Shown here one piece after another: positions 1 to 17,060 of a stretch of DNA of 19,347 nucleotides (the first letter of the stretch is position 1; each line of letters opens with the position of its first letter). The DNA is taken from assembly GCA_964372275.1 (NCBI GenBank), contig CAYJRR010000087.1, positions 1 through 19,347 of the forward strand. The letters are read 5' to 3'. The DNA comes from an uncultured bacterium (GTDB lineage: Bacteria; CAYJRR01). The notes beneath the pieces were generated by a model. The model saw only the letters and a list, made by a program, of their open reading frames with translations, was not told the origin of the DNA and made no database searches. Both the position numbers and the translations under genes were made by a program.

Positions 1-1265
1 GAGGGCCGGGCGATCGAGCGGACGGTCGGCGCCGCCGATTCGAGCGTTCGGCGCAGCGCGACCACCGGCGAGAGGTGGCCCGCTGCCCGGGCGGGGAGGT
101 AGGAGGCGAAAAGCGACGCGAACAGTCCCGCCCCGATCCCCAGCGCCAGGCGCCCGGGGGTGACGACCAGCGATTCGGGGCGGACGGCCAGGTAGAGATC
201 GGAGATCGTCTCCCCCACCGCCCGGAGCACCGCGTGCGCGAGCCCGAGTCCCACGACCAGACCCAGGCCCGAGCCGGCGAGGCCCAGCACCACCCCCTCC
301 CCGACGAACAGGGAGACGATGCCGCGTCGCTCGACGCCGATGGCGCGCAGCAGTCCGATCTCGCGGCGCCGCTGGGCGACGGCGATCGAGAGCGATTGGA
401 AGACGATGAAGGCGCCGACGAAGATCGAGACCAGCGAGGCGATCGAGGTCGCCAGCCGGAATCCGCCCAGGATCCGGTCGGCCTCCTCGGTCCGCCGCTG
501 CGGGCGCGCGACCGGAGCGCGGCCGGCGATGGCGGCGGAGAGCCGCGCGGCGAGGTCGGGCACGGCGACGCCGTCGTGTGCCATCACGTCGATCCGGTCG
601 AAGCGGCCGGCGCGGCCGAAGGCGTCCTGCGCCGCGTAGACGTCCATCACCGCCAGGTCCCCGCCGAGCACGGTGGCCGGACCGCGGGCTCGAAGCAGCC
701 CGTGCACCGTGAACGACTCGGTCCCGGCGATCGTCTCCAGCCGCACCGAATCGCCGATCTTCACGCCGTGGCGGCCGGCGTAGTCGTGCGTGAGGAGGAT
801 CCCGCGCGGGTCGTTCAGGAAGGCGAGGTCGTCGGCGATCGGTCCGCGCGTTCGCGCTCCCCCGGGGGACTCCCCGGACCCCTGGGCTTCGTCCGCGGTC
901 ACTTCGTAGTCGCGCACCTTGGCGTCGGCCAGGGTGTCGACCCCGAGCACGGCGAGCTGCACCCCGGTGCGGAGGTCGCGCGCGGTGTCGTAGACGACCG
1001 GCACCGCCGCCGCGACCCCTTGGGTTGCCGCGACCGTCTCCAGCAGCTCCTCCGCCACCCCGGTCGCGCCGTCGCCGACCTGCAGCACCGTCCGGCCGGC
1101 GATGCGGTCGATCGTCTGCCGGAGCGACGCCATCACCGATCCGTTCACCAGGTCGACGGCGAAGATCACCGCCACCCCCAGCGCGATCCCCGACAACGTC
1201 AGTCCCGACCGCCCCGGCGTGGCGCGAAGGTGGCGCAGGGAGATCAGCCGGAGGAGGGTTCGCAT
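1..1265 (-). CDS. ABC transporter permease, FtsX/MacB-LolE family (3' end runs off the window edge; start ATG at 1265)
   Basis: My own minus-strand translation from the ATG at 1265..1263 gives MRTLLRLISLRHLRATPGRSGLTLSGIALGVAVIFAVDLVNG..., a typical FtsX-permease N-terminal TM1. Near position 1 the same frame gives ...LLRAIGVERRGIVSLFVGEGVVLGLAGSGLGLVVGLGLAHAVLRAV...AGHLSPVVALR, the conserved FtsX C-terminal domain. It lies 28 nt downstream of the ABC ATPase stop. The track omits it because it has no stop inside the window. The 75..1397 + ORF is its mirror-frame artefact. I did not check every codon of the frame for stops. Confidence 0.75.
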   Translation of the reverse strand, partial: MRTLLRLISLRHLRATPGRSGLTLSGIALGVAVIFAVDLVNGSVMASLRQTIDRIAGRTVLQVGDGATGVAEELLETVAATQGVAAAVPVVYDTARDLRTGVQLAVLGVDTLADAKVRDYEVTADEAQGSGESPGGARTRGPIADDLAFLNDPRGILLTHDYAGRHGVKIGDSVRLETIAGTESFTVHGLLRARGPATVLGGDLAVMDVYAAQDAFGRAGRFDRIDVMAHDGVAVPDLAARLSAAIAGRAPVARPQRRTEEADRILGGFRLATSIASLVSIFVGAFIVFQSLSIAVAQRRREIGLLRAIGVERRGIVSLFVGEGVVLGLAGSGLGLVVGLGLAHAVLRAVGETISDLYLAVRPESLVVTPGRLALGIGAGLFASLFASYLPARAAGHLSPVVALRRTLESAAPTVRSIARP

Positions 1266-1293
1266 TCCGATCCCCGGCGTGTGCGGCGGTCCC

Positions 1294-2013
1294 TCATGCC
1301 CGTGCGGCGCGCGAAGCGTGTCGTTCTGCGACGATCCGCCCATCGCGGAACTCGAGGACCCGATCGGCGATCGCCGCCGCCGCCGGGTCGTGGGTGACCA
1401 TCACCACCGCTCGTCCCGGGCCTTCCCCCCGCGTCGCTTCGCGGAGAAGGTCGAGGACGCCGGCGCCGGCGGCGGTGTCGAGGTTGCCGGTCGGCTCGTC
1501 GGCGAGGAGCACCGCCGGCTCGGTGACCAGGGCCCGCGCGACGGCGATCCGCTGCATCTCGCCGCCGGAGAGCTCGTCCGGCGTGTGCTCCGCGCGCGCG
1601 GCCAGCCCGACGCGCTCCAGGATCCCCCGCGCGCGGCGGTCGGCTTCGGCGCGCGGGCGGCCCGCGAGCAGCAGCGGAAGGGAGACGTTCTCGGCCGCCG
1701 TCAGGAGCGGAAGGAGGTTGAAGAACTGGAAGACGAGCCCGATCCGATCGCGGCGCACCCGCGTCCGCTCGTCGTCGCTCATCCCGGCGAGCGACCGACC
1801 TTCGATCGACACCTCCCCCCGCGTCGGACGGTCGAGTCCGCCGAGGAGGTTGAGGAAGGTGCTCTTCCCCGAGCCGGACGGCCCGACGATGGCGACCATC
1901 TCGCCGGGGACGATCGTGGCGGAGACGCCGGCGACCGCGGCCACCTCCACCGCGCCGCGGCGGTAGACGCGGTGCACGTCGCGCGCCTCGATGCCGGCGG
2001 CATGGCCGCTCAC
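1294..2013 (-). CDS. ABC transporter ATP-binding protein (LolD/MacB-type ATPase)
   Basis: Walker A GPSGSGKST, Q-loop, ABC signature LSGGEMQRIAVARAL, Walker B LLADEPTGNLD and H-loop VTHD are all present within the 1294..2967 ORF. The upstream part of that ORF is mirror-frame extension. The likely start is the GTG at 2013 (MSGHAAGIEARDVHRVY...), which overlaps the TGA of the upstream radical SAM gene (GTGA). GGGGTG lies 5 nt upstream. The GTG at 2019 is an alternative. Confidence 0.9.
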   Translation of the reverse strand: MSGHAAGIEARDVHRVYRRGAVEVAAVAGVSATIVPGEMVAIVGPSGSGKSTFLNLLGGLDRPTRGEVSIEGRSLAGMSDDERTRVRRDRIGLVFQFFNLLPLLTAAENVSLPLLLAGRPRAEADRRARGILERVGLAARAEHTPDELSGGEMQRIAVARALVTEPAVLLADEPTGNLDTAAGAGVLDLLREATRGEGPGRAVVMVTHDPAAAAIADRVLEFRDGRIVAERHASRAARA

Positions 2014-3038
2014 GTCCACACCCCGGCGAGAGCCGTGGCGCACGCGGGGCACCGGCCTGCGACGAGCCGGTTGCGCAGCGTGCGGTAGCCGAACCGCGTG
2101 ATCACCACCTCCGCGCATCCCGGGCAGACGGTGTGCTCGGTGTCGTTGCCCGGGAGGCCGACGTAGACGTGTCGCAGACCCGCCGCCCGCCCGGCCTCCC
2201 AGGCGCGGAGGAGGGTGGAGAGCGGCGTCGGCGGGTGGTCGAGCATCCGGTAGTCGGGGTGGAAGCGTCCCAGGTGCCAGGGGATCGATCGGTCGAGCGA
2301 GGCCAAAAAGGCGGCCATCCCCTCCACGCTCTCTTCGCCGTCGTTCTCCCCCGGGATCAGGACGGTCGTCGCCTCGACCCAGATCCCGCGCCGGCGGAGG
2401 GAAGCGATCGCGTCGAGCACCGGCTGCAGGCGGCCGTTCGCCAGCCGCGCGTACGCGCCGTCGTCGAACGCCTTCAGGTCGACGTTCGCCGCGTCGACCA
2501 ACCCCTCGAGCCCGTCCAGCGCCTCCTCCGTCATGAACCCGTTGGTCTTGAGTAGGACCTTCAGGCCCGCCGCGCGCGCCGCCCGGGCGACGTCGCGGGC
2601 GTACTCGAAGAAGATCGTCGGCTCGCTGTAGGTGAAACAGACCGACTCGACGTTCGCCTCCCGTGCGCGGGCGACGACCTCCTCCGGCGCCACCGCTTCG
2701 CCGGGGGGATCGTCTCCGGAGCGCCCGGCGGCGAACTGTGAAAGGTCGTGGTTCTGGCAAAAGCCGCAGGCGAAGTTGCAGCCGACGGTCGCCAGGCTCA
2801 AGGTGCGCGTTCCCGGCAGGAAGTGCCGGAACGGCTTCTTCTCGATCGGATCGACCGCCATCGCCGCGGCGATTCCGTAGACCGACGTCCACAGCTTCTC
2901 GTCGCGGGCGAACCGGACGCCGCAGAGTCCGGTGCCGCGGTCCTCCAGCACGCAGCGGTGCGCGCACAGATCGCAGCGAACACGCCCGTCGGGGAGCCGC
3001 GCGTACAGCTCGGCCTCACGGATCGGGTGAACGGGCAT
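2010..3038 (-). CDS. AmmeMemoRadiSam system radical SAM enzyme (pyruvate-formate-lyase activating enzyme-like)
   Basis: 342 aa. N-terminal Cys cluster CDLCAHRC, the radical SAM motif CNFACGFCQN, and the family-typical VDPIEKKPFRHFLPGTRTLSLATVGC block are present. An AGGA/GGGGGG ribosome-binding site precedes the ATG at 3038. The start lies 22 nt downstream of the encapsulin stop. Confidence 0.85.
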   Translation of the reverse strand: MPVHPIREAELYARLPDGRVRCDLCAHRCVLEDRGTGLCGVRFARDEKLWTSVYGIAAAMAVDPIEKKPFRHFLPGTRTLSLATVGCNFACGFCQNHDLSQFAAGRSGDDPPGEAVAPEEVVARAREANVESVCFTYSEPTIFFEYARDVARAARAAGLKVLLKTNGFMTEEALDGLEGLVDAANVDLKAFDDGAYARLANGRLQPVLDAIASLRRRGIWVEATTVLIPGENDGEESVEGMAAFLASLDRSIPWHLGRFHPDYRMLDHPPTPLSTLLRAWEAGRAAGLRHVYVGLPGNDTEHTVCPGCAEVVITRFGYRTLRNRLVAGRCPACATALAGVWT

Positions 3039-3060
3039 CGCCCCCCATCCTAGCAGGCAG

Positions 3061-3942
3061 CTACTGGTAGCGCTCGGACGGCGCCTCGGCCGCCTTCTCG
3101 GCGCGGCGCGGCTCCCACAGGACGGCGACCGAGCCGGCGGAGCCGGGGAGCAGACAGACCGACTCCATCATCGAGAAGCGGAAGAACGCTCCTTCGCGGC
3201 CGTCGTAGGCGATCGCCAACTCCTGCCCGACCAGCAGCCGCGGTCCGGTTCGATCGCGCGAGAGCACGATCGCCCCCTCTCGCAATGCCGGGGCCTTCTC
3301 GATCCGTTCGAAGGCGGGTCGGAGCTGCTCCAGTGGCGTGAGAGGCGAGCCGGGGTAGGGGCGCAGCAACCGGTAGAAGAGGACGGGAGCGATCGCCGCG
3401 ACGAACGGACCGTGCCGTCCCCGCTCGTCGAGCCGCCCGGCGGCGGTGACGAGGTCGTCGGCGGCCGCGGCCGGATCGCTCCAGTCGGAGATCGAGATCC
3501 CGAGGCCCCCGGCCTGGGTCAATAGGCCCGGCATCTCCTCGCTCGTCGCGCCGCGGAAGACCAGCCGGTCTTCGGCTTGGGCGACCGCCTGCGCCGCTTC
3601 GACCACGGCGCGGGTGTCGAGCGGCTCGCTCCGCGTCTCGAAGGCGGCGATCGTCCGGATGCCGACGCGGAAGGGACGGTGGAGCAGCGGCAACGGGCGC
3701 GCGTCCGGAAGGTGGATGTGCGCCGCGGTCGAGGCCTCGCCGGCGACCGGTCCCGTCTCCTCGTCCGGCTCGACCGGGCGATCCTCCGCCGCCCCGAGCC
3801 GGACGCCGGGTCCGGCGGGACCGACGACCCGCAGCAGCCGCCGGCCGGTCGCGGCCTCGGTGAATGCCTCCCGCGCCGCGGCTTCGAGAGCCTCCCAGAC
3901 CGCCGGGCCGAAGGGGGCCGCTTCGTGGTCGAGGTAGCTCAC
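3061..3942 (-). CDS. Family 1 encapsulin nanocompartment shell protein (Linocin_M18 fold)
   Basis: 293 aa, starting VSYLDHEAAPFGPAVWEALEAAAREAF at a GTG (3942). The C-terminal region ...GPRLLVGQELAIAYDGREGAFFRFSMMESVCLLPGSAGSVAVL aligns with Thermotoga maritima encapsulin ...[48 protein letters not shown] lies 6 nt upstream of the GTG. The GTG overlaps the TGA of the EncFtn gene. The 946-aa track ORF (3061..5901) is an upstream mirror-frame extension. Confidence 0.85.
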   Translation of the reverse strand: MSYLDHEAAPFGPAVWEALEAAAREAFTEAATGRRLLRVVGPAGPGVRLGAAEDRPVEPDEETGPVAGEASTAAHIHLPDARPLPLLHRPFRVGIRTIAAFETRSEPLDTRAVVEAAQAVAQAEDRLVFRGATSEEMPGLLTQAGGLGISISDWSDPAAAADDLVTAAGRLDERGRHGPFVAAIAPVLFYRLLRPYPGSPLTPLEQLRPAFERIEKAPALREGAIVLSRDRTGPRLLVGQELAIAYDGREGAFFRFSMMESVCLLPGSAGSVAVLWEPRRAEKAAEAPSERYQ

Positions 3943-4289
3943 GGGAGCACCTCCGGCGCCTGCATGACCGCTGCCGGGACCGCCGTCGCCGGCGCGCCCG
4001 GTTCCTGGCGCGCGATGTCGCCGGCGCGGAAGAGGAAGGCGCGCAGGTGGCGGGCGAAGCCGACGTCCTGGCGGCGGATCCACTCCAGGAGCATCGCGGC
4101 GTGCTCCTTCTCGTCGTCGCGGTTGTGCTCGAGGATCCGCTTGAGCTCGGGATCCTCCGCGGCGTCGATCCGCTGCTGGTACCAGTCGACCGCCTCCAGC
4201 TCCTCGACGAGCGACGTCAGCGCCCGGTGCAGGTCGCGCGTACGCTCGCTGAGGTGCTTGTGCGATTCGTGGTACGGCTCGCCCGCCAT
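3939..4289 (-). CDS. Encapsulated ferritin-like protein (EncFtn), the encapsulin cargo
   Basis: 116 aa: MAGEPYHESHKHLSERTRDLHRALTSLVEELEAVDWYQQRIDAAEDPELKRILEHNRDDEKEHAAMLLEWIRRQD... This closely matches the EncFtn family (Rhodospirillum rubrum type ...EELEAVDWY...DPEL..IL.HNRDEEKEHAAM.LEWLRR), and the Glu/His di-iron ligands are conserved. It sits immediately upstream of, and overlapping, the shell gene. GGAG lies 5 nt before the ATG. Confidence 0.85.
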   Translation of the reverse strand: MAGEPYHESHKHLSERTRDLHRALTSLVEELEAVDWYQQRIDAAEDPELKRILEHNRDDEKEHAAMLLEWIRRQDVGFARHLRAFLFRAGDIARQEPGAPATAVPAAVMQAPEVLP

Positions 4290-4344
4290 GGCGCTCCGAT
4301 GAGCATCCGCGCCCGGGGCGGCAAGTGATAAGGTCGCGGCCCCG

Positions 4345-7014
4345 GTGGAACCGCGCCCGAAACTGTTCCTGATCGACGCCTACGCCTACGTCTTCCGCGC
4401 CTACCACGCACTGCCTCCGCTGGCGACCGCCAAGGGGGTGCCGACCGGAGCGACCTACGGGTTCATCACCGCGCTCCTGAAGATCCTCCGCGAGCACTCG
4501 CCCGACTACGTCGGCGTGGTGTGGGACGCGCCGGGGAAGGGGTTCCGCGAGGCGATCGACGCCAACTACAAGGCGAACCGGGGCGAGACCCCGGCCGATC
4601 TCCTGCCGCAGTTCGAGCAGGTGCGTCGCGTCACCGACGCCTTCTGCATTCCGCACGTCGAGGCGACCGGGTTCGAGGCCGACGACGTGATCGCCACCCT
4701 CACCCGCCAGGCGGTCGAGTCGGGGTGCGACGTGGTGATCGTCTCCGGGGACAAGGACCTGATGCAGCTCGTCTCCGACCGGGTCCGGCTCCTCGACGTC
4801 ATGCGGGACAAGGTCTTCGACCCGGCGGCGGTGGAGGAGAAGTTTGGCGTCCCGCCGGCGCGCGTCGCCGACTACCTCTCGCTCACCGGCGACAGCTCGG
4901 ACAACGTGCCGGGCGTGGAGGGGATCGGACCGAAGTCGGCGGCGGCGCTCCTCCTCCGCTACGGAAGCCTCGATCGGGTGCTGGCCGAGCTCGATCGGGT
5001 GGAGCCGGAGAAGGTACGCCACAAGATCGAAGCGAGCCGCGCGAACCTCGACCTTTCTCGAAAGCTGGTGGCGCTGTCGTACGACGCGCCGGTCCACTTC
5101 GACCGCGAACGGATGACGGCACGCTCCCCCGACGCGGAGCGGCTGCGGCCGCTCCTGGTGGAGCTCGAGTTTTCGCGGCTGATCCCGCAGTTCGCTGCGG
5201 TGAGCCGGGAGACGCGCGCCAAGGCGGCGGCCGGCTACCGTGCGGTGCTCGACGAAGCGGCGCTCGCCGAGATGCGCGACGTGCTGTCGCGCGCGCCGAG
5301 GATCGCCTTCGCGCTGCTGACCGACGGGCACGACCTCGCCGGCCCGACACTGGTCGGTATTGCGCTCGCCGGGTCGGAGGCGGAGGCCTGGTACGTGCCG
5401 CTCGGGCACCGGTACCTCGGCAGTCCGGCGCAGCTCCCGGCGACCACCGTCCTCGCCGCGCTCCGGGACCTGCTTGGCGATCCGGCCAGGCGGAAGGCGA
5501 CCCACGACCTCAAGAAGACGCTCCACGTCCTCTCCCGCTTCGGCGTGGCGATCGAAGGCCCGGTCTCGGACACGATGATCGGCGCCTATCTCCTGAACGC
5601 CGAGCGCGCATCGCCGTCGGTCGCCTCGATCGCGCAGGAGCTGCTCGACCACACCACCGTCCCGTTGGAGGAGTTCGCCGGAAAGGGGGCGAAGCAGCTC
5701 CCGTTCGAGCAGACGTCGGTCGAGCCGGCGACCGAGTGGGCGGCGGAGCAGGCCCGCGTCACGCTCCTGGGCGCGGGGGCGGTCGAGGCGCGGCTCGACG
5801 AGATTCCGTCGCTCGCCCGGATCTACCGCGAGGTCGAGCTGCCGCTCACCCGGGTGCTGGTGGAGATGGAGCGGACCGGGATCGCGCTCGACGTGGAGCA
5901 CCTGCGGCGGCTGTCGCAGGAGTACGACCGCGAGATCCGCGATCTGGAACGGGCGATCTTCGAGGCGGCGGGGACCGAGTTCAACATCGCCTCGCCGGTG
6001 CAGCTGCGTCAGGTGCTGTTCGATCGGCTCGGACTCCCGGTGATCAAGAAGACCAAGACCGGTCCGTCGACCGACCAGGACGTGTTGGAGAAGCTAAAGC
6101 CCAAGCATCCGGTGCCGAACCTGATCCTGCACCACCGCTCCCGGTGCAAGCTGAAGAGCACCTACGTCGACGCGCTGCCGCGCCTCCTCGGCCCCGACGG
6201 CCGGCTGCACACCACCTTCCACCAGACGGTCGCCGCGACCGGGCGGCTCTCCTCGACCGATCCGAACCTGCAGAACATCCCGATCCGGACCGAGGAAGGC
6301 CGGAAGATCCGCCGCGCCTTCGTCGCCGCCCCCGGCCACGCCTTCGTCGCCGCCGACTATTCGCAGATGGAGCTCCGGCTGGTGGCCGCCTACTCGGGGG
6401 AGAAGGCGATGATCGACGCCTTCCTCGCCGGCGAGGACATCCACGCCGCGACGGCCCGCACCGTCTTCGGAAAGGCGGACGACGATTCGAGGCGCGCCGC
6501 CAAGGCGGTGAACTTCGGGATCCTCTACGGGCAGGGCGGGTGGGGGCTCGCGCAGACCCTGGGGATCGAGCCGGCCGAGGCGGAGCGCTACATCGAGGCC
6601 TACTTCGAGCGCTACCCGAAGCTGCGCGCCTTCCTCGACGGAGTGCTGGCCCACGCCGACCGCCACGGGTGGGTGGAGACCCCGCTCGGCCGGCGGCGGA
6701 CGCTCCCCGATCTCCACTCGAAGAACCCGCAGCTCCGCGATGCCGCGCGGCGCATGGCGATCAACCACCCGATCCAGGGGGCGGCCGCCGACCTGATGAA
6801 GCTGGCGATGCTGGCCGCGCACCGGCTCCTCGCCGCCGAGGGCCTGCGCGCGCGGATGATCCTGCAGATCCACGACGAACTGGTCTTCGAAGCCCCGGAG
6901 GACGAGGTCGAGCGCGTGCAGGCGCTCGCCCGCGAGGCGATGGAAGGGGTCGCCACGCTCGCCGTGCCGCTCAAGGTCGACCTCGGCGTCGGCCGCGACT
7001 GGAGCGAGGTCTGA
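4345..7014 (+). CDS. polA: DNA polymerase I
   Basis: 889 aa. The 5'-3' exonuclease N-terminus (KLFLIDAYAYVFRAYHA) and polymerase motifs A/B/C (DYSQMELR, RRAAKAVNFGILYG, QIHDELVF) are present. The GTG start is the first start codon after an in-frame TAA. The stop is TGA. Confidence 0.95.
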   Translation: MEPRPKLFLIDAYAYVFRAYHALPPLATAKGVPTGATYGFITALLKILREHSPDYVGVVWDAPGKGFREAIDANYKANRGETPADLLPQFEQVRRVTDAFCIPHVEATGFEADDVIATLTRQAVESGCDVVIVSGDKDLMQLVSDRVRLLDVMRDKVFDPAAVEEKFGVPPARVADYLSLTGDSSDNVPGVEGIGPKSAAALLLRYGSLDRVLAELDRVEPEKVRHKIEASRANLDLSRKLVALSYDAPVHFDRERMTARSPDAERLRPLLVELEFSRLIPQFAAVSRETRAKAAAGYRAVLDEAALAEMRDVLSRAPRIAFALLTDGHDLAGPTLVGIALAGSEAEAWYVPLGHRYLGSPAQLPATTVLAALRDLLGDPARRKATHDLKKTLHVLSRFGVAIEGPVSDTMIGAYLLNAERASPSVASIAQELLDHTTVPLEEFAGKGAKQLPFEQTSVEPATEWAAEQARVTLLGAGAVEARLDEIPSLARIYREVELPLTRVLVEMERTGIALDVEHLRRLSQEYDREIRDLERAIFEAAGTEFNIASPVQLRQVLFDRLGLPVIKKTKTGPSTDQDVLEKLKPKHPVPNLILHHRSRCKLKSTYVDALPRLLGPDGRLHTTFHQTVAATGRLSSTDPNLQNIPIRTEEGRKIRRAFVAAPGHAFVAADYSQMELRLVAAYSGEKAMIDAFLAGEDIHAATARTVFGKADDDSRRAAKAVNFGILYGQGGWGLAQTLGIEPAEAERYIEAYFERYPKLRAFLDGVLAHADRHGWVETPLGRRRTLPDLHSKNPQLRDAARRMAINHPIQGAAADLMKLAMLAAHRLLAAEGLRARMILQIHDELVFEAPEDEVERVQALAREAMEGVATLAVPLKVDLGVGRDWSEV

Positions 7015-7044: not shown

Positions 7045-7650
7045 GGCCCAGCGGCGCACGATGTGGCCGTTCTTCCGGACCGAGATCTCGATCCAGCCTT
7101 CGACGAACGCCGCGTCGCAGTCGCACTGCATATCCGTCAGGAATTCACGAACCACGGGAGTCTGCCAGAAGCCGGGCTTCACCTCACGAAGTCCGGTCGA
7201 AGCTCGCATCGTCTCGCCGAGGTCCTGATGATCGATCACCGCTGCCGTTGCAAGGTCGATCACCGCGGCGGAGAGACGATCGAAGTGGGGGCGGTTATTC
7301 CGTCGCATGACGAGCAGAAGGCGACCGCCGGGTAGGGGAAAGGCCGGGTACTGGTCGTAGGTGGTGCTCCTGCAGGGTGTCTTTCGGTGTCCGACGCTTC
7401 GTACGTCGAAATAGTAGGCCGGCGGTAGATCGAGCTTCTTTCCGTCGAGCGAAACCACGTCGTCGTCATCCAGGCAGTCGCCATCGGTACCGTGTTCGCG
7501 AAGGCTGGGACTTACAAACGTCAGTGTTGCCTTTCGATCGGTCAGTGCGCACGTCACTTCGAATTCGCAGCGCGGCGCTTGTTCGGCCGACGCCGGCCGC
7601 ATTCCGGGCGCGAACAAGGTAGCAAGAACGACGACGTGCCAATTCCGCAT
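7039..7650 (-). CDS. Secreted hypothetical protein, Cys-rich (7 Cys), with atypical codon usage
   Basis: 203 aa. N-terminal signal peptide MRNWHVVVLATLFAPGMRPASA-EQAP. Stop is TAA. It uses many A/T-ending codons (aat, ctt, ttg, caa, aca, ttt, gta, tat, cta), unlike its neighbours. I recognise no domain. Confidence 0.55.
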   Translation of the reverse strand: MRNWHVVVLATLFAPGMRPASAEQAPRCEFEVTCALTDRKATLTFVSPSLREHGTDGDCLDDDDVVSLDGKKLDLPPAYYFDVRSVGHRKTPCRSTTYDQYPAFPLPGGRLLLVMRRNNRPHFDRLSAAVIDLATAAVIDHQDLGETMRASTGLREVKPGFWQTPVVREFLTDMQCDCDAAFVEGWIEISVRKNGHIVRRWAK

Positions 7651-7783: not shown

Positions 7784-8605
7784 TCAGCAGAGAAGCGGCA
7801 GCGCCCTCCTCGTCGCCAGGTTTGCCTGCACAGCCCGAGCCTCGGCGGCGCGCTCGGCGATCGGGGCGAAACGGGCCGACGCAATCGGATCGGCGAAGAA
7901 GGGACCGCCGTCTTCGAGCAGCGATCGCTGGATCCGCTGCGCGAGCGCGTAGAGGGCGTGAACGGCGCGCGACGCCGAGAGCGTAAGGCGATCCCGCGCC
8001 AGGCCGACCGCCATCAGCGCGCGGTCGACGGCAAGCACCGCGGCGCGGGCGGTAGAGGCGGTGGTCGCCTCGACCCGGTCGATCTGCAGCGCGGCCGGGC
8101 GGGCGTCGAAGGCATGGACTTCGAGGATCGCGCCGCCGTCGGCGAGGCCGCCGATGACGAACGGAAGCGGTTCGACCGTGCCCAGGGGGCGGCGGCCGCA
8201 CGGATCGGCGGTCGCCGAAAGCAGGGCGATCTCGGCGCGCGTCGCGGCGAAACGGGCTCCGAGCTCGCGCCGCTCGGGGGCCGGGCACGACGGATCGGCG
8301 GCGCGCGCGGCGATCGCGCGCATGCGGGCCAGCCGCTCGGAGACCGCTTCGTTCAGCCCGTGCGCGAGGTGAACGAGCGAAAGGGCCTCGTTGGCGCATC
8401 GCTGCGCGAACTGCAGCGCGCGAAGCGCCGAGTGGACGGCGTCGAACTCCAGGGTCGAAAGCTCGGGCGCGGGGGGCGTCGGTTCGTCGGCGGGGGGCCG
8501 GCGCCCCGGCGGGGGCGGTTCCGGATCCTCGGGGTTCCGGTCCGACGATTCGACACGCAGCCGCGCGGCGATCCTCTCGACCCCCGTATGGAATACGAGG
8601 GGCAT
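7784..8605 (-). CDS. Flagellin-family protein, divergent paralogue (flagellin N- and C-terminal helical regions with a Pro-rich insertion; possibly FlgL-like)
   Basis: 273 aa. ERIAARLRVESSDRNPED corresponds to flagellin ERLSSGLRINSAKDDAAG. LRALQFAQRCANEALSLVHLAHGLNEAVSERLARMRAIAARAAD corresponds to the flagellin ND1 segment ...[36 protein letters not shown]. The C-terminus ...AVQANLATRRALPLL is flagellin-like. An AGGAAGG ribosome-binding site precedes the ATG. It starts 13 nt after the flagellin stop. Confidence 0.65.
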   Translation of the reverse strand: MPLVFHTGVERIAARLRVESSDRNPEDPEPPPPGRRPPADEPTPPAPELSTLEFDAVHSALRALQFAQRCANEALSLVHLAHGLNEAVSERLARMRAIAARAADPSCPAPERRELGARFAATRAEIALLSATADPCGRRPLGTVEPLPFVIGGLADGGAILEVHAFDARPAALQIDRVEATTASTARAAVLAVDRALMAVGLARDRLTLSASRAVHALYALAQRIQRSLLEDGGPFFADPIASARFAPIAERAAEARAVQANLATRRALPLLC

Positions 8606-9440: not shown

Positions 9441-9559
9441 TTCTGGCCCTTCCCTTCTCCCCCTTTTTAGGAAAAGAGACGAAAGAATCATACCACCGCC
9501 GCCTCCCCCGCGGAAGTAGCGGCTATGGAGGGCGGAAATCCTAAGTTATTACGAAAGGA

Positions 9560-9700
9560 TTCGAACCGAGTCGGATCCGAGCCGTACCGGTATCGGTATG
9601 CGACCCGATCCGATCCGGCCGGCGGATTTCGGATCGGATCGGTTCCGATCGGCTCGGATCGGATACCGATACCGATACCGATACCGATCGGATCGGCCTC
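9560..9700. repeat. GATC-dense short-tandem-repeat region forming a long imperfect palindrome centred on CCGGCCGG. It contains (ATACCG)4 at 9663..9686 and CGGAT/CGATC pentamer runs
   Basis: Read from the sequence: ...ccggtatcggtatgcgacccgatccgatccggccggcggatttcggatcggatcggttccgatcggctcggatcggataccgataccgataccgataccgatcggatcgg... There are about 9 GATC sites in about 130 bp. It lies between the DsbA-like gene stop (9702) and the flagellin start (9440). Confidence 0.8.
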
Positions 9701-9701
9701 T

Positions 9702-10799
9702 CTAGCTGCCGGCGTTCTTGAGCTCGCGCTCGATCAGCCGGCTGATCTCGGGGACGTTCGCCCCCGGCACCATCCATCCGTTCACGAAGAAGGTCGGCGT
9801 CGAGTTCACGCCGTAGGCGTCGGCGTCGGCCATGTCCTTCTTCACCTCGTCGACCCGCTTCGGGTCGGCCACGCAGGCGTCGAACTTCGCCAGGTCGAGC
9901 TTCAAGAGCTCCGCGTGCGCCCGCAGATCGGAGGCCTTCATCGCCGACTGGTTCTTGAAGACCGCCTCGTGGAACTCCCAGTACTTCCCCTGGTCGCGCG
10001 CGCAGCCCGCCGCCACCGACGCCGGCAGCGCGTCGGGGTGTTTCCCCATCAGCGGGTAGTCGCGATAGACGAGCTTCACCTTCCCCTCGTACTGCTTCAG
10101 GACCTCCGGGAGCCGGTTCTCCGCCGTCCTGCAGGCCGGGCACTGGAAGTCGGAGAACTCGACGATCGTCACCGGCGCGGAGTCCGACCCCTTCATCGGG
10201 TCGTCGTCGACGGAGACCTCCACCCGCGGCGGATCGGGCGGCGTGAGGTGGAACTTCACGTTCGACGACTCGATCAGCTTGGAGATGTAGGCACCGCGCG
10301 CGTCCTGCTTGGCGCGCTGCTCGAGGCCGGTCTTGATCTGCTCCTTCACCTCGTCGAACTTGGGGAACGGATCGCCGGGCTTCGCCGACTTCTGCCGGGA
10401 GCTGTAGAACATCTGCACCTCGGCGTCGGTGACCGCCTTGGCCGTCGACTCGACCTTCTTCTCCAGGAACTCGTCCATCGTCAGGCCCTCTTTCTGGGCC
10501 TCGCGCGTGATCAGCCGCTTCGCGATCTCGTTCTGCACCCACCCCTGCTTGGTCTCGAAGATGTCGCGGCGCGCTCCGAAGATCGCGCCGGCGGTCGCCT
10601 GGTCGACTTCGGTCCCGGTGATCTTGATCCCGTCGGCCTCCGCAACGACCCCGGATCCCAACGGATCGCACGACGAGGCCATCGCCCCTTCGGCCCCCGC
10701 TCCGCCCCCCGCTCCGGCGTTGGGGTTGGCGCACGCGGCAGCGGCGAGGGCGATGATCCCGGCAAGGGCGAGACGGCTCGAGCGTACGGAAACGCGCAT
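9702..10799 (-). CDS. DsbA-family thiol:disulfide oxidoreductase lipoprotein (N-terminal SurA-N/chaperone-like region plus thioredoxin domain)
   Basis: 365 aa from ATG 10799. The track ORF 9702..11906 is a mirror-frame extension upstream of this ATG. A lipoprotein signal MRVSVRSSRLALAGIIALAAAAC (lipobox AAAC) is present. The thioredoxin active site FQCPAC is followed by DsbA-like C-terminal helices ...NSTPTFFVNG... GGAGGA lies 7 nt upstream of the ATG. Confidence 0.85.
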   Translation of the reverse strand: MRVSVRSSRLALAGIIALAAAACANPNAGAGGGAGAEGAMASSCDPLGSGVVAEADGIKITGTEVDQATAGAIFGARRDIFETKQGWVQNEIAKRLITREAQKEGLTMDEFLEKKVESTAKAVTDAEVQMFYSSRQKSAKPGDPFPKFDEVKEQIKTGLEQRAKQDARGAYISKLIESSNVKFHLTPPDPPRVEVSVDDDPMKGSDSAPVTIVEFSDFQCPACRTAENRLPEVLKQYEGKVKLVYRDYPLMGKHPDALPASVAAGCARDQGKYWEFHEAVFKNQSAMKASDLRAHAELLKLDLAKFDACVADPKRVDEVKKDMADADAYGVNSTPTFFVNGWMVPGANVPEISRLIERELKNAGS

Positions 10800-10890
10800 G
10801 AATCCTCCGGAGTGGCGGATCGGGCGATGGCCGGCGACCCCCCGTTTGTCGCGCGCCAAGCTAGCATAATTGCCTGATCCGGCAACCACT

Positions 10891-11645: not shown

Positions 11646-12163
11646 GCTGCGAGCAGGTCCAGGAGTGGATCCCCAAGGTGGTCGACCGCGAGGCGCTCGC
11701 GTGGGAGCGGGCGGCGGTCGAGGAGCACCTCGCCGGCTGCGCGGCGTGCGCGGAGCTGCGCGCCGAGCTCGTCGAGATCGGGGCCCTCGTGCGCGGGCCG
11801 ATCCTCGCGGCGGCCGACGCGGCCGACTTCTCGGGACTGTGGCCGGCCGTGTCGGCCGGGATCGACCGCGAGCTCGCGGCGGCACGGCGTGAGCGGGTGG
11901 CCTCACGCGGATGGGACGCCCTCCTGGCGCCGCTGTCCCGGTGGGTCGCGGGCGGACTGGTCGCAGCCGCCGCGGCCGCCGCGGTCTGGATCGCGCCGCC
12001 GGCGCCCCACCTCTTCCCGGCCGACCTCCGCGTCGAGGTGAGCGAGGTCGAAGGCGGGGCCGACCACGACGTGATGATCTACGAGTCGCAGGACGAAAAC
12101 GTCACCTTCATCCTGGTGATGCCCAAGTACGAGGCAGATCACAGGAGAGGAGCACCGATATGA
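11642..12163 (+). CDS. Anti-sigma factor, zinc-binding (ZAS) type, single-pass membrane
   Basis: GTG start at 11642 overlaps the sigma TGA (GTGA). MSCEQVQEW...EEHLAGCAACAELRAEL carries the HxxxCxxC ZAS motif. A TM helix WVAGGLVAAAAAAAVWIAPP is present. The longer track ORF 11330..12163 is the same frame extended upstream. Confidence 0.8.
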   Translation: MSCEQVQEWIPKVVDREALAWERAAVEEHLAGCAACAELRAELVEIGALVRGPILAAADAADFSGLWPAVSAGIDRELAAARRERVASRGWDALLAPLSRWVAGGLVAAAAAAAVWIAPPAPHLFPADLRVEVSEVEGGADHDVMIYESQDENVTFILVMPKYEADHRRGAPI

Positions 12164-12702
12164 TTCCGGGGGCGCGAGCGAAGCGGGTCGGTCTGTTGGG
12201 GCGGGCGGTGGTCGGGGCGGTGATCGCCCTCTCGCTCGCCGTCGCCGCGTCGGCGCGCGCGGCCGATCCGACCGAGGCCGACGTGCGCGTGCGCGTCATC
12301 CACGCCTCCAACGCCGGCGGCAAGTCGCGGATCGACCGGAGCGTCCGCGATCTCGACAAATACCTGAAGCCGTTCAACTACGACCGCTGGCGGCAGGTGA
12401 TCGACCAGACGTTGCACCTGGGCGTCTCGGATACCCAGGGGATCGGCCTGCTGTCGGGGAAGAACCTGAACGCCACGCTGGTGGCGCTGACCAAGGAGAA
12501 GGCGACGATCCGTCTGCTCCTCGTCGGACAGACCGGCCAGATGCTCGACACCACCGTCTCCGCCGGACCGCACCGCCTCTTCTTCATCGCCGGTCCGCGC
12601 TACGAAGACGGCGTCCTGTTCATCGCCATCGAGCCGCATTACGACCCGGAGAAGGTCGTGCCCGACGCGAACGTGTCGGACAGCTCGAAGCGGCGGGAGT
12701 AG
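12160..12702 (+). CDS. Periplasmic hypothetical protein co-transcribed with the ECF sigma/anti-sigma pair
   Basis: 180 aa. ATG at 12160 overlaps the anti-sigma TGA (ATGA). An AGGAGAGGAG ribosome-binding site lies upstream. Signal peptide MIPGARAKRVGLLGRAVVGAVIALSLAVAASARA-AD. I recognise no domain. Confidence 0.7.
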   Translation: MIPGARAKRVGLLGRAVVGAVIALSLAVAASARAADPTEADVRVRVIHASNAGGKSRIDRSVRDLDKYLKPFNYDRWRQVIDQTLHLGVSDTQGIGLLSGKNLNATLVALTKEKATIRLLLVGQTGQMLDTTVSAGPHRLFFIAGPRYEDGVLFIAIEPHYDPEKVVPDANVSDSSKRRE

Positions 12703-12742
12703 GAACGGTTCGGGGGCGCGGCCGCGCGCCGCGTCCGGTTCC
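12702..12742. terminator. GC-rich imperfect hairpin GGAACGG...CCGGTTCC enclosing a perfect 12-bp palindrome GCGCGGCCGCGC (12716..12727). Candidate terminator or REP-like element
   Basis: Starts 1 nt after the TAG stop of the periplasmic gene. No U-tract follows. Confidence 0.3.
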
Positions 12743-12921
12743 ACCGGCCCATTCGCGCCCCACCTCGTCCGGATTCCGATCGCGGAAGGTTCGATCGCGC
12801 GGACGCCGCGCGCGCCGCGGCATCGCGTCGCCGCAGACTTGGCGCGTCCTCGCCCCCGGCACCGGCGTTGCTCCCTCCCCGCGCGCTTCCACGCGCCTCG
12901 AATCCACGGGAGGGACCCTCG

Positions 12922-13518
12922 ATGAAGACCGTCGCCGAACACGCGATTGCGATCCCCAGCCATCTCGAGCTTCCGAGCGCCTTGCTCGTCACCAAGTTCC
13001 TCCGCGCCGACCGCGGCGGTCTGCTCCGGCTCGACGATGCGCGAAACCTGCTTCGCCGCAGCTTCGAGCTCTACCGGTCGACGTACGATCTCCGCATCCA
13101 CGCCTGGTCGTTCCTCCCGTCGCGCGTCGACCTGGTGGTCGGACTTCCGTGCGAAGGCACCGTCAAGGAGGCGCTGGAGAAGGTCTTCGGCTACTACACC
13201 CGCCGGTTCAACGCGCGCTACGGGAAGGACGGCGCGCTGTTCCGAACCAAGTTCGTCAAGCGGCTGCTGGTGGGCCAACCGGCGATCGCCGCCGCCGTCG
13301 AGCGCGTCAGCCGGATGCCGGAGACGAGTCGCTGCCGGTGGGAGCCCGGGCGCGAGTGCTGGTCGAGCGCCGGCTTCTACCGGCTCGGACGTGAAGACCG
13401 GATCCTGACGCCGCTCCCGGGCGTCGCGCGTCCCTGGGGGCGGCGGCGCGAGGAGGCGGGCCGGATGGCGGCCTCGTTCGAGGAACCGACCGCGCCGGAG
13501 TACGCTCCCGGTCGGTGA
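12922..13518 (+). CDS. IS200/IS605-like (TnpA_REP/RAYT-like) protein that has lost the HuH histidines and the catalytic Tyr; domesticated or inactive transposase derivative
   Basis: 198 aa from the ATG at 12922; the track ORF begins 18 codons further upstream at 12868. LRIHAWSFLPSRVDLVV corresponds to RAYT FEINAWVVLPEHMHCIW, with HMH replaced by RVD. LPCEGTVKEALEKVFGYYTRRF corresponds to LPEGDDDFSSRWREIKKQF. ALFRTKFVKRLL corresponds to IWQPRFWEHAIR. No Tyr is present in the region equivalent to DYIYINPV. The assignment is by motif memory and is moderately confident. Confidence 0.5.
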   Translation: MKTVAEHAIAIPSHLELPSALLVTKFLRADRGGLLRLDDARNLLRRSFELYRSTYDLRIHAWSFLPSRVDLVVGLPCEGTVKEALEKVFGYYTRRFNARYGKDGALFRTKFVKRLLVGQPAIAAAVERVSRMPETSRCRWEPGRECWSSAGFYRLGREDRILTPLPGVARPWGRRREEAGRMAASFEEPTAPEYAPGR

Positions 13519-15074
13519 CCGTCGACTCCGGGATGGGCGCGCGGGGTGGGCCGGATCCGCACCCGGCGGAAGGGGTTCTCGCGCGGGCCGTCTTCCTGCG
13601 CGCGCTCGGCCTCGTCTACGCCGCCGCCTTCGTCTCGCTGTGGGTGCAGGTTCACGGACTGATCGGAGAACGGGGGATCGCCCCCGCGTCGGAGTTGCTG
13701 GCGGTCGCCCACGAGCGCTTCGGCGCCGGCGCGGCCTGGCGGCTGCCGACGGTCTTCTGGCTCTCGTCCGGCGACGTCGCGATCCACCTCGTCTGCGCCG
13801 CCGGGACGGCGTGCGGCGCGCTGCTCCTGCTCGGGCGCGCGCCGGGACCGGCGGCGATCGCCGCGTGGGGGCTCTACCTCTCGCTCGTGGGGGTCGGGGA
13901 CGTCTTCCTGAGTTACCAGTGGGACGCGCTGCTCCTGGAGGCCGGTCTGCTCGCATGCCTCGACGCGCCCTGGCGGCTCCGGCCGGGCGGCGTCGAGCGC
14001 GCGCCCTCGAGACTGTCGCGCGGACTGCTTCGTCTGCTGCTGTTCCGCCTGATGTTCGCCTCCGGCGCGGTGAAGCTCCTGAGCGGCGACCCGTCGTGGC
14101 GGAACCTCTCCGCCCTCGAGTTCCACTACTGGACCCAGCCGCTCCCCCATCTCGCGAGCTGGTTCGCGCATCGGCTGCCGGGCGCGGTGCACGCGATCTC
14201 GACGTTCGCGATGTTCGCCGTCGAGCTGGTCGTCCCGTTCTTCTACGTCGGACCCCGCCGCGCGCGCCGCTACGCTGCCGTGGCGACGGCCGGTCTCCAG
14301 GTCGCCGTCGCCGCGACCGGGAACTACGGCTTCTTCAATCTGCTGACGGCGGCGCTCTGCGTGACGCTGCTCGACGACGACGAACTTCGCCGCGTCTTGC
14401 CGGCGCGGCTCGTCGAAGCGCTCGTGCCCCGGTCGGTCGAGCCGGCGCGGGCGCTCCCCCGCGGCGTCGCCGGGTTCGTCGGAGGGTTCCTCGGCGCCGC
14501 CGGTCTGGCGGCGTTCGCCGGCGGGCTCGGCGTTCCCGTTCCACGACCGCTCTCGATTCCGCGTGAGCTTCTCCGACCGACGATGTCGGCGAACGCCTAC
14601 GGACTGTTCGCGGTGATGACGCGCGAGCGGCCGGAGATCGTGGTCGAAGGGAGCGACGACGGCCGGACGTGGCGGAGCTACGACTTCCGGTGGAAACCGG
14701 GCCCGGTGGAGCGCGCGCCGCGCCTGGCGCCGCTGCACCTGCCGCGTCTCGACTGGCAGATGTGGTTCGCGGCGCTCTCCGCCTGCCGGGACGAGCCGTG
14801 GTTCCTCCAGTTCGAGCGGGCGCTGCTCGAGGGCCGGCCCGAGGTGTTGGGGCTCCTGCGCGACGCGCCGTCGACGGCGCCGGAGTCGTCCGCCGGGCAG
14901 ACCCGCGCCTCCGCGACGCGACCGCCGCGATTCGTCCGCTCGACGCTCTACCGCTACCGCTTCACCACCGCGGCGGAACGCCGGGACGGCGGCGCCTGGT
15001 GGTCGCGCGAAGAGGCGGCCCCCTACTGTCCGACGCTGACGCTGGTCGACGGCCGGCTCACCCGCGTTCCGTGA
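13515..15074 (+). CDS. Lipase maturation factor (LMF1/DUF1222) family integral membrane protein
   Basis: 519 aa. FLRALGLVYAAAFVSLWVQVHGLIGERGI, YQWDALLLEAGLLACLDAP, GNYGFFNLLTAALCVTLLDD, YGLFAVMTRERPEIVVEGSDDGRTWRSYDFRWKPG, LDWQMWFAAL and LYRYRFT match the LMF family. A GTG at 13515 overlaps the upstream TGA (GTGA). The ATG at 13533 is an alternative start. Confidence 0.85.
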   Translation: MTVDSGMGARGGPDPHPAEGVLARAVFLRALGLVYAAAFVSLWVQVHGLIGERGIAPASELLAVAHERFGAGAAWRLPTVFWLSSGDVAIHLVCAAGTACGALLLLGRAPGPAAIAAWGLYLSLVGVGDVFLSYQWDALLLEAGLLACLDAPWRLRPGGVERAPSRLSRGLLRLLLFRLMFASGAVKLLSGDPSWRNLSALEFHYWTQPLPHLASWFAHRLPGAVHAISTFAMFAVELVVPFFYVGPRRARRYAAVATAGLQVAVAATGNYGFFNLLTAALCVTLLDDDELRRVLPARLVEALVPRSVEPARALPRGVAGFVGGFLGAAGLAAFAGGLGVPVPRPLSIPRELLRPTMSANAYGLFAVMTRERPEIVVEGSDDGRTWRSYDFRWKPGPVERAPRLAPLHLPRLDWQMWFAALSACRDEPWFLQFERALLEGRPEVLGLLRDAPSTAPESSAGQTRASATRPPRFVRSTLYRYRFTTAAERRDGGAWWSREEAAPYCPTLTLVDGRLTRVP

Positions 15075-15167
15075 TGGAATGCAGGGGGGCGGCAGGGGGC
15101 CGGGGAGGTCCCCGGGAAGCGCCCAGGCGCGAAACGTTCCCCGTAGAAGCCCGAAGGGTGGACAGCG

Positions 15168-15683: not shown

Positions 15684-15738
15684 GCCGCTTCTACGCGCGG
15701 CGCCGCGGATCTATTTCGGCCGGCGGGGCGATGTCGCG

Positions 15739-17053: not shown

Positions 17054-17060
17054 CGCCGGT

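What the first reader, a model, noticed from the sequence alone, without database searches (positions are those of the whole stretch)
1..4289. Encapsulin/EncFtn nanocompartment genes in one tight operon with a radical SAM enzyme and a FtsX-type ABC exporter
Five co-oriented genes run in the order EncFtn, family-1 encapsulin, AmmeMemoRadiSam radical SAM, ABC ATPase, FtsX permease. They are joined by two GTGA start/stop overlaps and by gaps of 22 nt and 28 nt. Ribosome-binding sites lie inside the upstream ORFs, which is a signature of translational coupling. Encapsulin/EncFtn iron-storage operons normally stop after the shell gene. AmmeMemoRadiSam enzymes normally pair with AMMECR1 and Memo homologues, and I see none in the window. 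A radical SAM [4Fe-4S] enzyme hard-wired to an iron-mineralising nanocompartment and a MacB/Lol-type exporter suggests a functional link, for example Fe supply to or protection of the radical SAM enzyme, or export of a radical-SAM-modified product. To my knowledge this combination has not been described.
Basis: partly seen in the sequence, partly recalled or inferred. Interest (0 to 1): 0.8.

Follow-up and report, generated by a model that had tools for sequence, protein, structure and literature searches.

The report
Encapsulin operon beside radical SAM/ABC genes
An ordinary two-gene iron-storage nanocompartment operon (EncFtn plus encapsulin) lies next to a radical SAM gene and an ABC exporter, a neighbourhood seen only in one rare uncultured lineage; the downstream genes seem to have their own promoter, so a functional link is unproven.

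Summary
On the minus strand lie EncFtn (4289..3939), a family-1 encapsulin (3942..3061), a TIGR04337-type radical SAM enzyme (3038..2010), a LolD/MacB-like ABC ATPase (2013..1294) and a MacB_PCD/FtsX permease (1265..1, cut by the contig end). There are two GTGA overlaps and gaps of 22 and 28 nt. All family calls pass curated HMM cut-offs.

The adjacency is not unique to this contig. The only two other members of this radical SAM sub-clade also sit directly after an encapsulin gene, and an orthologous ABC ATPase follows in two relatives.

"One hard-wired operon" is only partly supported:
- The 22-nt gap holds TGCTAGGAT, an extended -10 promoter motif. It is conserved 7-9 nt before the start codon in all four related loci. 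All six copies in the window lie upstream of genes.
- One relative has encapsulin followed by the ABC gene with no radical SAM gene.
- Another has a strong hairpin between the radical SAM and ABC genes.
- Synteny extends to the divergent polA.
- None of 80 generic radical SAM loci carries an encapsulin. None of 18 Anaeromyxobacter encapsulin loci carries the radical SAM gene or an orthologous ABC gene.

Most likely these are two adjacent transcription units kept together by descent.

The parts
3939..4289 (-). EncFtn (encapsulated ferritin-like cargo), 116 aa
   Evidence: PF22277 at E 1e-38; TIGR04535 at 126.6 bits against a cut-off of 125. E 1e-31 to Rhodospirillum rubrum EncFtn structures, with the EELEAVDWY and EKEH stretches conserved. 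No canonical GSLxIGSL-type tail.
3061..3942 (-). Family-1 encapsulin shell protein, 293 aa. The GTG start overlaps the EncFtn stop (GTGA), and a GGAGG SD lies at 3954..3950.
   Evidence: PF04454 at 193 bits; NF041155 at 152.8 bits against 100. E 4e-28 to Myxococcus xanthus EncA structures. Sequence read.
3047..3055 (-). Promoter-like extended -10 element TGCTAGGAT inside the 22-nt encapsulin/radical SAM gap, 8 nt before the radical SAM ATG
   Evidence: TGCTA[GCT]G[AC]T is conserved 7-9 nt before the start of the gene that follows encapsulin in W, L008, L001 and L109. TGNTANNNT occurs 6 times in the window against 1.8 expected, and all six copies lie upstream of genes in the right orientation.
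2010..3038 (-). AmmeMemoRadiSam-type radical SAM enzyme, 342 aa
   Evidence: TIGR04337 at 330.6 bits against 220; PF04055. CNFACGFC (CX3CX2C) motif and N- and C-terminal Cys motifs as in the family. Nearest solved structure is PFL activase, at only E 1e-8.
1294..2013 (-). LolD/MacB-like ABC ATPase, 239 aa. The GTG start overlaps the radical SAM stop (GTGA).
   Evidence: PF00005 at 123 bits; best NCBIfam hits are LolD and MacB, below their cut-offs. 70.6% identical to the L001 ATPase and 72% to the L109 ATPase.
1..1265 (-). MacB_PCD/FtsX-type permease, N-terminal 421 aa, cut by the contig end
   Evidence: PF12704 at 53 bits and PF02687 at 70 bits. Only weak LolC/E-like hits.
4345..7014 (+). DNA polymerase I, divergent neighbour (context only). 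Its own TGATAAGGT element lies at 4326..4334, 10 nt before the GTG.
   Evidence: Pfam DNA_pol_A at 501 bits. The same divergent polA neighbour occurs in L008, 79% identical over 53 aa, with TGCTAGTTT 6 nt before its start.

Best explanation
The window holds a conventional two-gene EncFtn/family-1 encapsulin operon, an iron-oxidising cargo translationally coupled to its shell. Directly after it comes a separate transcription unit: radical SAM, MacB-type ABC ATPase and FtsX permease. This second unit starts at its own extended -10 promoter in the 22-nt gap and probably gives a leaderless or nearly leaderless mRNA. Read-through from the encapsulin operon is possible because no terminator was found. 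The side-by-side arrangement is a synteny block (polA <> EncFtn-Enc > radical SAM > ABC-FtsX) inherited within one rare, high-GC, uncultured lineage. It is not an obligate functional module. The radical SAM enzyme is this lineage's ordinary copy of the widespread TIGR04337 family, whose function is unknown and was predicted in 2007 to lie in an RNA-modification pathway.

Shown: gene identities, junctions, motif conservation and variable gene content in relatives.
Inferred: promoter activity, leaderless transcription and lack of functional coupling.
For: - Family calls.
- Promoter motif: TGCTAGGAT, TGCTAGGAT, TGCTACGAT and TGCTATGCT lie 7-9 nt before the start codon in W, L008, L001 and L109. 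The flanking intergenic DNA does not align.
- In L001 and L109 this is the only TGNTANNNT match on either strand. In L008 the only other match lies 6 nt before polA.
- In the window there are 6 matches against 1.8 expected. All six lie upstream of genes: the radical SAM gene, polA, an ORF starting near 7602, flagellin (about 50-nt leader with its own SD), a thioredoxin/DsbA-like gene (with a TTGCCG -35), and lgt.
- Variable content: L109/L110 have encapsulin followed by the ABC gene with no radical SAM gene. L001 has a 15-bp hairpin between the radical SAM and ABC genes (-31 kcal/mol, z -4.55).
- Other close encapsulin relatives are followed by unrelated genes: an erythromycin-esterase-like gene, proline dehydrogenase, an AidB-like dehydrogenase, a cytochrome c, or an opposite-strand gene.
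- polA is also syntenic in L008.
- None of the 80 generic TIGR04337-type loci has Enc or EncFtn; 58 of them have at least 1 kb of upstream DNA.
- None of 18 Anaeromyxobacter EncFtn-Enc loci has the radical SAM gene or an orthologous ABC gene.
- Identities between lineages are in a common range: radical SAM 65-73%, ABC 70-72%, polA N-terminus 79%, EncFtn 53-69%, Enc 48-62%. This fits ordinary vertical divergence.
Against: - All three known members of this radical SAM sub-clade lie immediately after an encapsulin gene. The sub-clade stands apart from more than 3,000 other family members: 728 and 709 bits, then a drop to 471, with identity of 57% or less.
- The orthologous ABC ATPase follows encapsulin in all three lineages where this can be tested.
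- No terminator lies between the encapsulin and radical SAM genes in W, so co-transcription is likely as well.
- Promoter activity is inferred from sequence only.
- The sample is small, about four lineages, and all are on short contigs.
Confidence: 0.6

Rival explanations
1. Functional module. The radical SAM enzyme, the MacB-type exporter or both would be lineage-specific accessory components of the EncFtn encapsulin system. Examples: iron supply to or protection of the [4Fe-4S] enzyme, modification of shell or cargo, or export linked to mobilised iron. Expression would be joint, by read-through plus an internal promoter.
For: - The adjacency is kept in W, L001 and L008 although the encapsulins are only 48-58% identical.
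- An orthologous ABC ATPase follows in W, L001 and L109.
- The encapsulin/next-gene gaps are short (22-40 nt) and no terminator was found in W.
- Family-1 operons are known to carry non-cargo accessory genes (PMC8346489).
Against: - A conserved promoter-like element separates the two gene sets.
- The radical SAM gene is missing in L109 and set off by a hairpin in L001.
- polA is syntenic as well.
- The association is not seen outside this lineage: 0 of 80 generic radical SAM loci and 0 of 18 Anaeromyxobacter encapsulin loci.
- The radical SAM enzyme has no targeting-peptide-like extension.
Confidence: 0.2
2. The radical SAM, ABC ATPase and FtsX permease genes form a functional unit unrelated to the encapsulin. 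The radical SAM enzyme would make or modify a product that the MacB-type pump exports.
For: There is a GTGA overlap between the radical SAM and ABC genes in W, and both share one candidate promoter. One generic locus, L091, also has ABC-FtsX-radical SAM in one orientation.
Against: - L001 has 140 nt and a strong hairpin between the radical SAM and ABC genes.
- In L109 the same promoter motif drives the ABC gene with no radical SAM gene.
- Pfam found no SPASM or peptide-recognition domain in the radical SAM enzyme, and I saw no precursor-peptide ORF in the short gaps of the sequence (not searched systematically).
- Only 3 of 80 generic loci have any similar ABC ATPase nearby. MacB-type pumps are common in soil bacteria (my own knowledge).
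Confidence: 0.12
3. The radical SAM enzyme is itself an encapsulin cargo, packaged alongside EncFtn.
For: Only its position directly after the shell gene.
Against: Its N- and C-termini line up with generic family members. The C-terminal CPxC...(I/L)AGV(F/W) is family-wide, and there is no extra tail. Primary cargo genes are usually encoded upstream of the shell gene (PMC8346489).
Confidence: 0.03

Closest known systems
EncFtn/family-1 encapsulin iron-storage systems (Rhodospirillum rubrum, Haliangium ochraceum; shell most like Myxococcus xanthus EncA)
   Same: The cargo gene lies directly upstream of the shell gene. The EncFtn fold and metal-site stretches are conserved: E 1e-31 to the R. rubrum structures. 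The shell matches EncA structures at E 4e-28. Both pass curated HMM cut-offs.
   Different: - The EncFtn tail lacks the canonical SLGIGSL-type targeting peptide; the consensus is from my own knowledge, the tails.
- The shell has a longer acidic insertion near residues 52-76 and a C-terminal extension of about 20 aa.
- Start and stop overlap in nearly the whole clade.
- It is followed by a radical SAM/ABC unit, which the 2021 census text does not report.
AmmeMemoRadiSam three-gene system (TIGR04337 radical SAM + AMMECR1 + Memo)
   Same: The radical SAM enzyme scores 330 bits against a cut-off of 220. It has all family Cys motifs and is 50-55% identical to members from many phyla.
   Different: No AMMECR1 or Memo gene lies within the 19-kb contig. 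Only 7 of 80 generic loci have them adjacent anyway. This sub-clade sits after an encapsulin gene.
MacB/LolCDE-type (type VII) ABC transporters
   Same: A separate LolD/MacB-like ATPase plus a permease with a MacB periplasmic core domain and an FtsX C-terminal domain.
   Different: It scores below every equivalog cut-off (LolD 233 against 308; LolCE 70 against 362). The substrate is unknown. No adaptor or outer-membrane partner is visible before the contig ends.
Family-1 encapsulin operons with non-cargo accessory genes (e.g. IMEF + ferredoxin; DyP + DUF1345 membrane protein)
   Same: The idea of conserved non-encapsulated partners next to the shell gene (PMC8346489).
   Different: Those partners are enriched across many genomes. 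Here the partners occur in one small lineage, vary in content and have their own promoter-like signal.

Membership tests
Family-1 encapsulin (NF041155 / PF04454) | Shell protein matches the family HMM above the curated cut-off and resembles solved encapsulin shells | tested here: met
   NF041155 at 152.8 bits against 100; PF04454 at 192.9 bits against 24.3. E 4e-28 to EncA structures 4pt2 and 7s20.
Family-1 encapsulin (NF041155 / PF04454) | Dedicated cargo gene encoded directly next to the shell gene | tested here: met
   EncFtn lies directly upstream with a GTGA overlap. The same pairing occurs in every locus from this encapsulin clade whose contig reaches upstream of the shell gene.
Family-1 encapsulin (NF041155 / PF04454) | Cargo carries a recognisable C-terminal targeting peptide | tested here: inconclusive
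   The tail EPGAPATAVPAAVMQAPEVLP has no SLGIGSL-like motif, and tails are not conserved among W-type relatives. Anaeromyxobacter relatives share an xDVEGR motif instead. Loading was not testable.
Family-1 encapsulin (NF041155 / PF04454) | Self-assembly into an icosahedral HK97-fold shell | not testable with these tools
   Sequence homology only. No structure prediction was run.
EncFtn (PF22277 / TIGR04535) | HMM match and conserved ferroxidase-site stretches | tested here: met
   PF22277 at 131 bits; TIGR04535 at 126.6 bits against 125, which is marginal. The alignment to R. rubrum EncFtn keeps EELEAVDWY and (D/E)EKEH.
AmmeMemoRadiSam radical SAM enzyme (TIGR04337) | HMM score above the curated cut-off; CX3CX2C radical SAM motif | tested here: met
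   330.6 bits against 220. C87-x3-C91-x2-C94 and the family's N- and C-terminal Cys motifs are present.
AmmeMemoRadiSam three-gene system | AMMECR1 and Memo homologues encoded alongside or fused | tested here: not met
   No PF01871 or PF01875 hit in any long ORF of the 19-kb contig. The rest of the genome was not available. Only 7 of 80 generic loci have them within 3 kb.
MacB/FtsX-type ABC exporter | ABC ATPase plus a permease with MacB_PCD and an FtsX domain | tested here: met
   PF00005, PF12704 and PF02687 are all above cut-off. No equivalog-level assignment.
Single five-gene operon | One promoter and no internal transcription signals between the genes | tested here: not met
   A conserved extended -10 element lies in the encapsulin/radical SAM gap. 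There is a hairpin between the radical SAM and ABC genes in L001. This is sequence evidence only; transcripts were not measured.
Single five-gene operon | Gene set conserved as a block in relatives | tested here: inconclusive
   Enc-radical SAM-ABC in L001, Enc-radical SAM in L008, Enc-ABC without the radical SAM gene in L109, and other neighbours in L004, L111 and L113.

The most novel reading that the evidence does not exclude
In this rare lineage the TIGR04337-type radical SAM enzyme, the MacB-type exporter or both could be true accessory components of an EncFtn encapsulin. One option is an Fe-S/radical enzyme whose cluster supply or oxidative protection depends on the iron compartment. Another is an exporter that handles iron or shell-derived material. 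Either would give the first functional clue for the uncharacterised AmmeMemoRadiSam radical SAM family and a new class of encapsulin accessory genes.
Probability: 0.15. Interest if true: 0.65.

Novelty: new member of a known kind. Interest (0 to 1): 0.3.

Why it matters
If the link were functional, it would tie an uncharacterised and very widespread radical SAM family to iron compartmentalisation, and it would add a membrane exporter to encapsulin biology. On present evidence the main value is negative and methodological. Tight spacing and co-orientation in a high-GC genome did not mean one operon. A 9-nt extended -10 signature placed right before start codons marks unit boundaries in this organism. 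Synteny kept within one lineage, polA included, should not be read as functional coupling. Two side observations may interest encapsulin specialists more than the radical SAM adjacency: the leaderless-type promoters, and the EncFtn tails without a canonical targeting peptide across this whole clade.

Tried and rejected
- Extending the contig. The window is the complete contig. Exact look-ups of its proteins gave only Logan fragments of 0.9-1.3 kb. The rest of the permease, any adaptor gene and any AMMECR1 or Memo gene elsewhere could not be seen.
- Metagenome scan with the three-sequence radical SAM alignment. The tool chose family-wide peptides, so it returned 80 generic loci of 54% identity or less and no new sub-clade member. 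I reused these loci as a control set.
- Profile search for more sub-clade members. It found only the two already known full-length proteins.
- Consensus promoter/terminator scan. It found no promoter because it requires a -35 element, and no relevant terminator.
- Rfam. No hit in the window.
- Radical SAM enzyme as cargo. Rejected, because there is no extension or targeting-like tail.
- Frameshift fusion of EncFtn to the shell. Considered because of the universal ATGA/GTGA overlaps and the missing targeting peptide. I saw no conserved slippery sequence at the junctions and did not pursue it.
- sigma-54 reading of the conserved motifs upstream of Anaeromyxobacter EncFtn. Rejected on spacing.
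- Taxonomy. None of the five window proteins looked up (radical SAM, encapsulin, EncFtn, PolA and the L001 radical SAM relative) carries a source name. The nearest named encapsulin relatives are Anaeromyxobacter, at about 50% identity.

Full report
**1. What is in the sequence**

The window is 72% GC and is a complete 19,347-bp contig from an NCBI metagenome-assembled genome. Reading the minus strand gives:
- EncFtn, 4289..3939, 116 aa.
- Encapsulin, 3942..3061, 293 aa. Its GTG start overlaps the EncFtn TGA as GTGA, and a GGAGG lies 7 nt upstream, inside EncFtn.
- A 22-nt gap, 3060..3039.
- Radical SAM enzyme, 3038..2010, 342 aa.
- ABC ATPase, 2013..1294, with a second GTGA overlap.
- A 28-nt gap.
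- A permease from 1265 that runs off the contig end.

The family calls are secure:
- EncFtn-like PF22277, E 1e-38; TIGR04535, 126.6 bits against 125.
- Linocin_M18, 193 bits; encap_f1 NF041155, 152.8 bits against 100.
- TIGR04337 AmmeMemoSam_rS, 330.6 bits against 220.
- ABC_tran with LolD/MacB-like best hits.
- MacB_PCD plus FtsX.

EncFtn aligns with the R. rubrum EncFtn structures at E 1e-31. The shell aligns with M. xanthus EncA at E 4e-28. The radical SAM enzyme has only a distant solved relative, PFL activase, at E 1e-8.

The rest of the contig encodes PolA (divergent, 4345..7014), flagellin, an ECF-type sigma factor, a thioredoxin/DsbA-like protein, an LMF1-like protein, SRAP, Lgt and the N-terminal part of Lon. 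It has no AMMECR1 or Memo domain.

**2. Is the adjacency unique to this contig?**

No. The closest radical SAM relative is P0002, 65% identical. It lies on a 2.8-kb Logan contig (L001) with the order EncFtn (partial), encapsulin, radical SAM, ABC ATPase (partial). A JGI contig (L008) has EncFtn, encapsulin and radical SAM (partial).

These three radical SAM proteins are 65-73% identical to each other. They are at most 57% identical to every other family member scored. A profile search of 5.8 billion proteins gives 728 and 709 bits for the two full-length members and then drops to 471. This is a very small sub-clade, and all three known members sit directly after an encapsulin gene. The ABC ATPases of W and L001 are 70.6% identical.

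**3. How far does the association reach?**

- From the radical SAM side: 80 generic TIGR04337-type loci came from metagenomes, and 58 have at least 1 kb of upstream DNA. None carries Enc or EncFtn.
- From the encapsulin side: 18 loci from species-representative genomes are all Anaeromyxobacter or related Myxococcota. Seventeen keep EncFtn-Enc; the eighteenth, L015, has too little upstream DNA to tell. None has the radical SAM gene or an orthologous ABC gene.
- Among the closest, longer "W-type" shells the downstream gene varies:
  - an erythromycin-esterase-like gene in L004-L006;
  - an opposite-strand gene in L111/L112;
  - proline dehydrogenase;
  - an AidB-like acyl-CoA dehydrogenase;
  - a cytochrome c, with FUR and rubrerythrin upstream.
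- L109/L110 have EncFtn and encapsulin followed, after 25 nt, by an ABC ATPase 72% identical to the window's. There is no radical SAM gene between them.
- In L008 the gene upstream of EncFtn is again a divergent polA, 79% identical over the 53 residues present.

The conserved block is therefore polA <> EncFtn-Enc > (radical SAM) > ABC. It includes an obviously unrelated housekeeping gene, and the radical SAM gene is optional. Identities across the block run from 48% to 79%, which looks like ordinary vertical divergence within one lineage.

**4. The 22-nt gap**

Anchoring on the start codon of the gene that follows encapsulin gives:
- W: TGCTAGGAT, 8 nt, ATG.
- L008: TGCTAGGAT, 7 nt, ATG. The start was chosen by homology; the gene caller's ATG lies inside the motif.
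- L001: TGCTACGAT, 7 nt, ATG.
- L109: TGCTATGCT, 9 nt, TTG; here the gene is the ABC ATPase.

The surrounding intergenic DNA does not align. The shared pattern TGnTAnnnT is the extended -10 promoter consensus. L001 carries C where W has the G of a possible AGGA Shine-Dalgarno sequence. The T, A and T positions of the -10 hexamer are kept, which argues for a promoter rather than a ribosome-binding site.

In the window TGNTANNNT occurs six times against 1.8 expected. All six copies lie in intergenic DNA, oriented towards a gene:
- 8 nt before the radical SAM ATG.
- 10 nt before the polA GTG.
- 11 nt before the lgt GTG.
- 13 nt before an ATG that opens a 187-aa ORF.
- About 50 nt before the flagellin ATG, which has its own strong SD.
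- About 60 nt before a thioredoxin-like gene, with a TTGCCG -35 at 16 nt.

In L001 and L109 the motif after encapsulin is the only match on either strand. In L008 the only other match is 6 nt before polA. I conclude that this motif is the housekeeping -10 element of this lineage. Several genes look leaderless, and the encapsulin/radical SAM gap very probably holds a promoter. This is sequence inference, not a measurement.

No terminator or significant structure lies at the W junctions, so read-through from the encapsulin operon is also likely. In L001 the radical SAM gene is followed by 140 nt that contain a 15-bp hairpin (-31 kcal/mol, z -4.55, 0 of 200 shuffles as stable). There it looks like a monocistronic unit.

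**5. The AmmeMemoRadiSam premise**

Among the 80 generic loci only 7 have Memo, AMMECR1 or a Memo-AMMECR1 fusion within 3 kb (domains verified). The absence of these genes from a 19-kb contig is therefore uninformative.

The family's function is unknown. From the AMMECR1, radical SAM and dioxygenase neighbourhood, Balaji and Aravind proposed an uncharacterised RNA base modification (PMC2034487). The window's enzyme keeps every family Cys motif and has no terminal extension. It is unlikely to be cargo.

**6. Literature**

No paper in the held library connects encapsulins with radical SAM enzymes. The text of the 2021 encapsulin census mentions no radical SAM or ABC transporter partners, although it does describe other non-cargo accessory genes. 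"AmmeMemoRadiSam" appears only as an annotation label in six papers. The neighbourhood therefore seems undescribed, but undescribed does not mean functional.

**7. Verdict**

- Best explanation (about 0.6): a standard EncFtn/encapsulin operon beside an independently promoted radical SAM-ABC-FtsX unit, held together by descent in a rare lineage.
- Functional accessory module: about 0.2.
- Self-contained radical SAM and exporter unit: about 0.12.
- Radical SAM enzyme as cargo: about 0.03.

The system is a new member of a known kind. The context is unusual but weakly supported as biology. Interest is 0.3.

Noticed in passing
window 3047-3055(-), 4326-4334(+), 7616-7624(-), 9487-9495(-), 10858-10866(-), 17888-17896(-): All six TGnTAnnnT (extended -10) matches lie upstream of genes. 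Four are only 8-13 nt from the start codon with no SD between, which suggests widespread leaderless transcription in this organism.
   Followed up: yes
window 3939-4000(-); L001, L004, L007, L008, L009-L026 EncFtn 3' ends: EncFtn tails across this whole encapsulin clade lack the canonical SLGIGSL-type targeting peptide. The W-type tails are not conserved. Anaeromyxobacter tails share an xDVEGR motif. In most loci the EncFtn stop overlaps or directly abuts the shell start (ATGA/GTGA). How the cargo is loaded is unclear.
   Followed up: partly
L009-L026, L004, L111 (about 8-25 nt upstream of the EncFtn ATG): A conserved CTGCGCAC-like motif lies close to the EncFtn start in Anaeromyxobacter-type loci, often with CTTGGCGC about 17 nt further upstream. 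It could be an alternative-sigma promoter or an operator. The window has TTGCCG...TGCTCATCG instead.
   Followed up: no
L001 2203-2240: A perfect 15-bp GC-rich hairpin (-31 kcal/mol, z -4.55) lies between the radical SAM and ABC genes with no U-tract. It may be a terminator or a regulatory element. It is absent from the window, where the two genes overlap.
   Followed up: partly
L091 1-3084: One generic TIGR04337 locus has ABC ATPase (45% identical), FtsX permease and radical SAM in one orientation. This is 1 of 80 loci and is probably chance.
   Followed up: no
window 13515-15074(+): A 519-aa protein with strong matches to lipase maturation factor domains LMF1 and LMF1_C (E 5e-51 and 1e-42). 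I know this family mainly from eukaryotes.
   Followed up: no
window 7784-8605(-), 9525-10877(+), 11911-12702(+), 12139-13956(-), 14669-15568(+), 15682-17404(+): Several long ORFs have no Pfam hit. In this 72% GC sequence many may be spurious shadow ORFs, so the gene content here is unresolved.
   Followed up: no
window 3700-3790(-) (encapsulin residues about 52-76) and 3061-3120(-) (C-terminal about 20 aa): The W-type shells carry a longer acidic insertion (EDRPVEPDEETGPVAGE...) and a charged C-terminal extension compared with the Anaeromyxobacter shells. The structural consequence is unknown.
   Followed up: no
L004 4342-5673; unnamed JGI locus of P0132: In one relative an erythromycin-esterase-family gene starts 5 nt after the shell gene. 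In another, FUR and a rubrerythrin lie just upstream of EncFtn, which fits an iron or oxidative-stress role for the clade.
   Followed up: no
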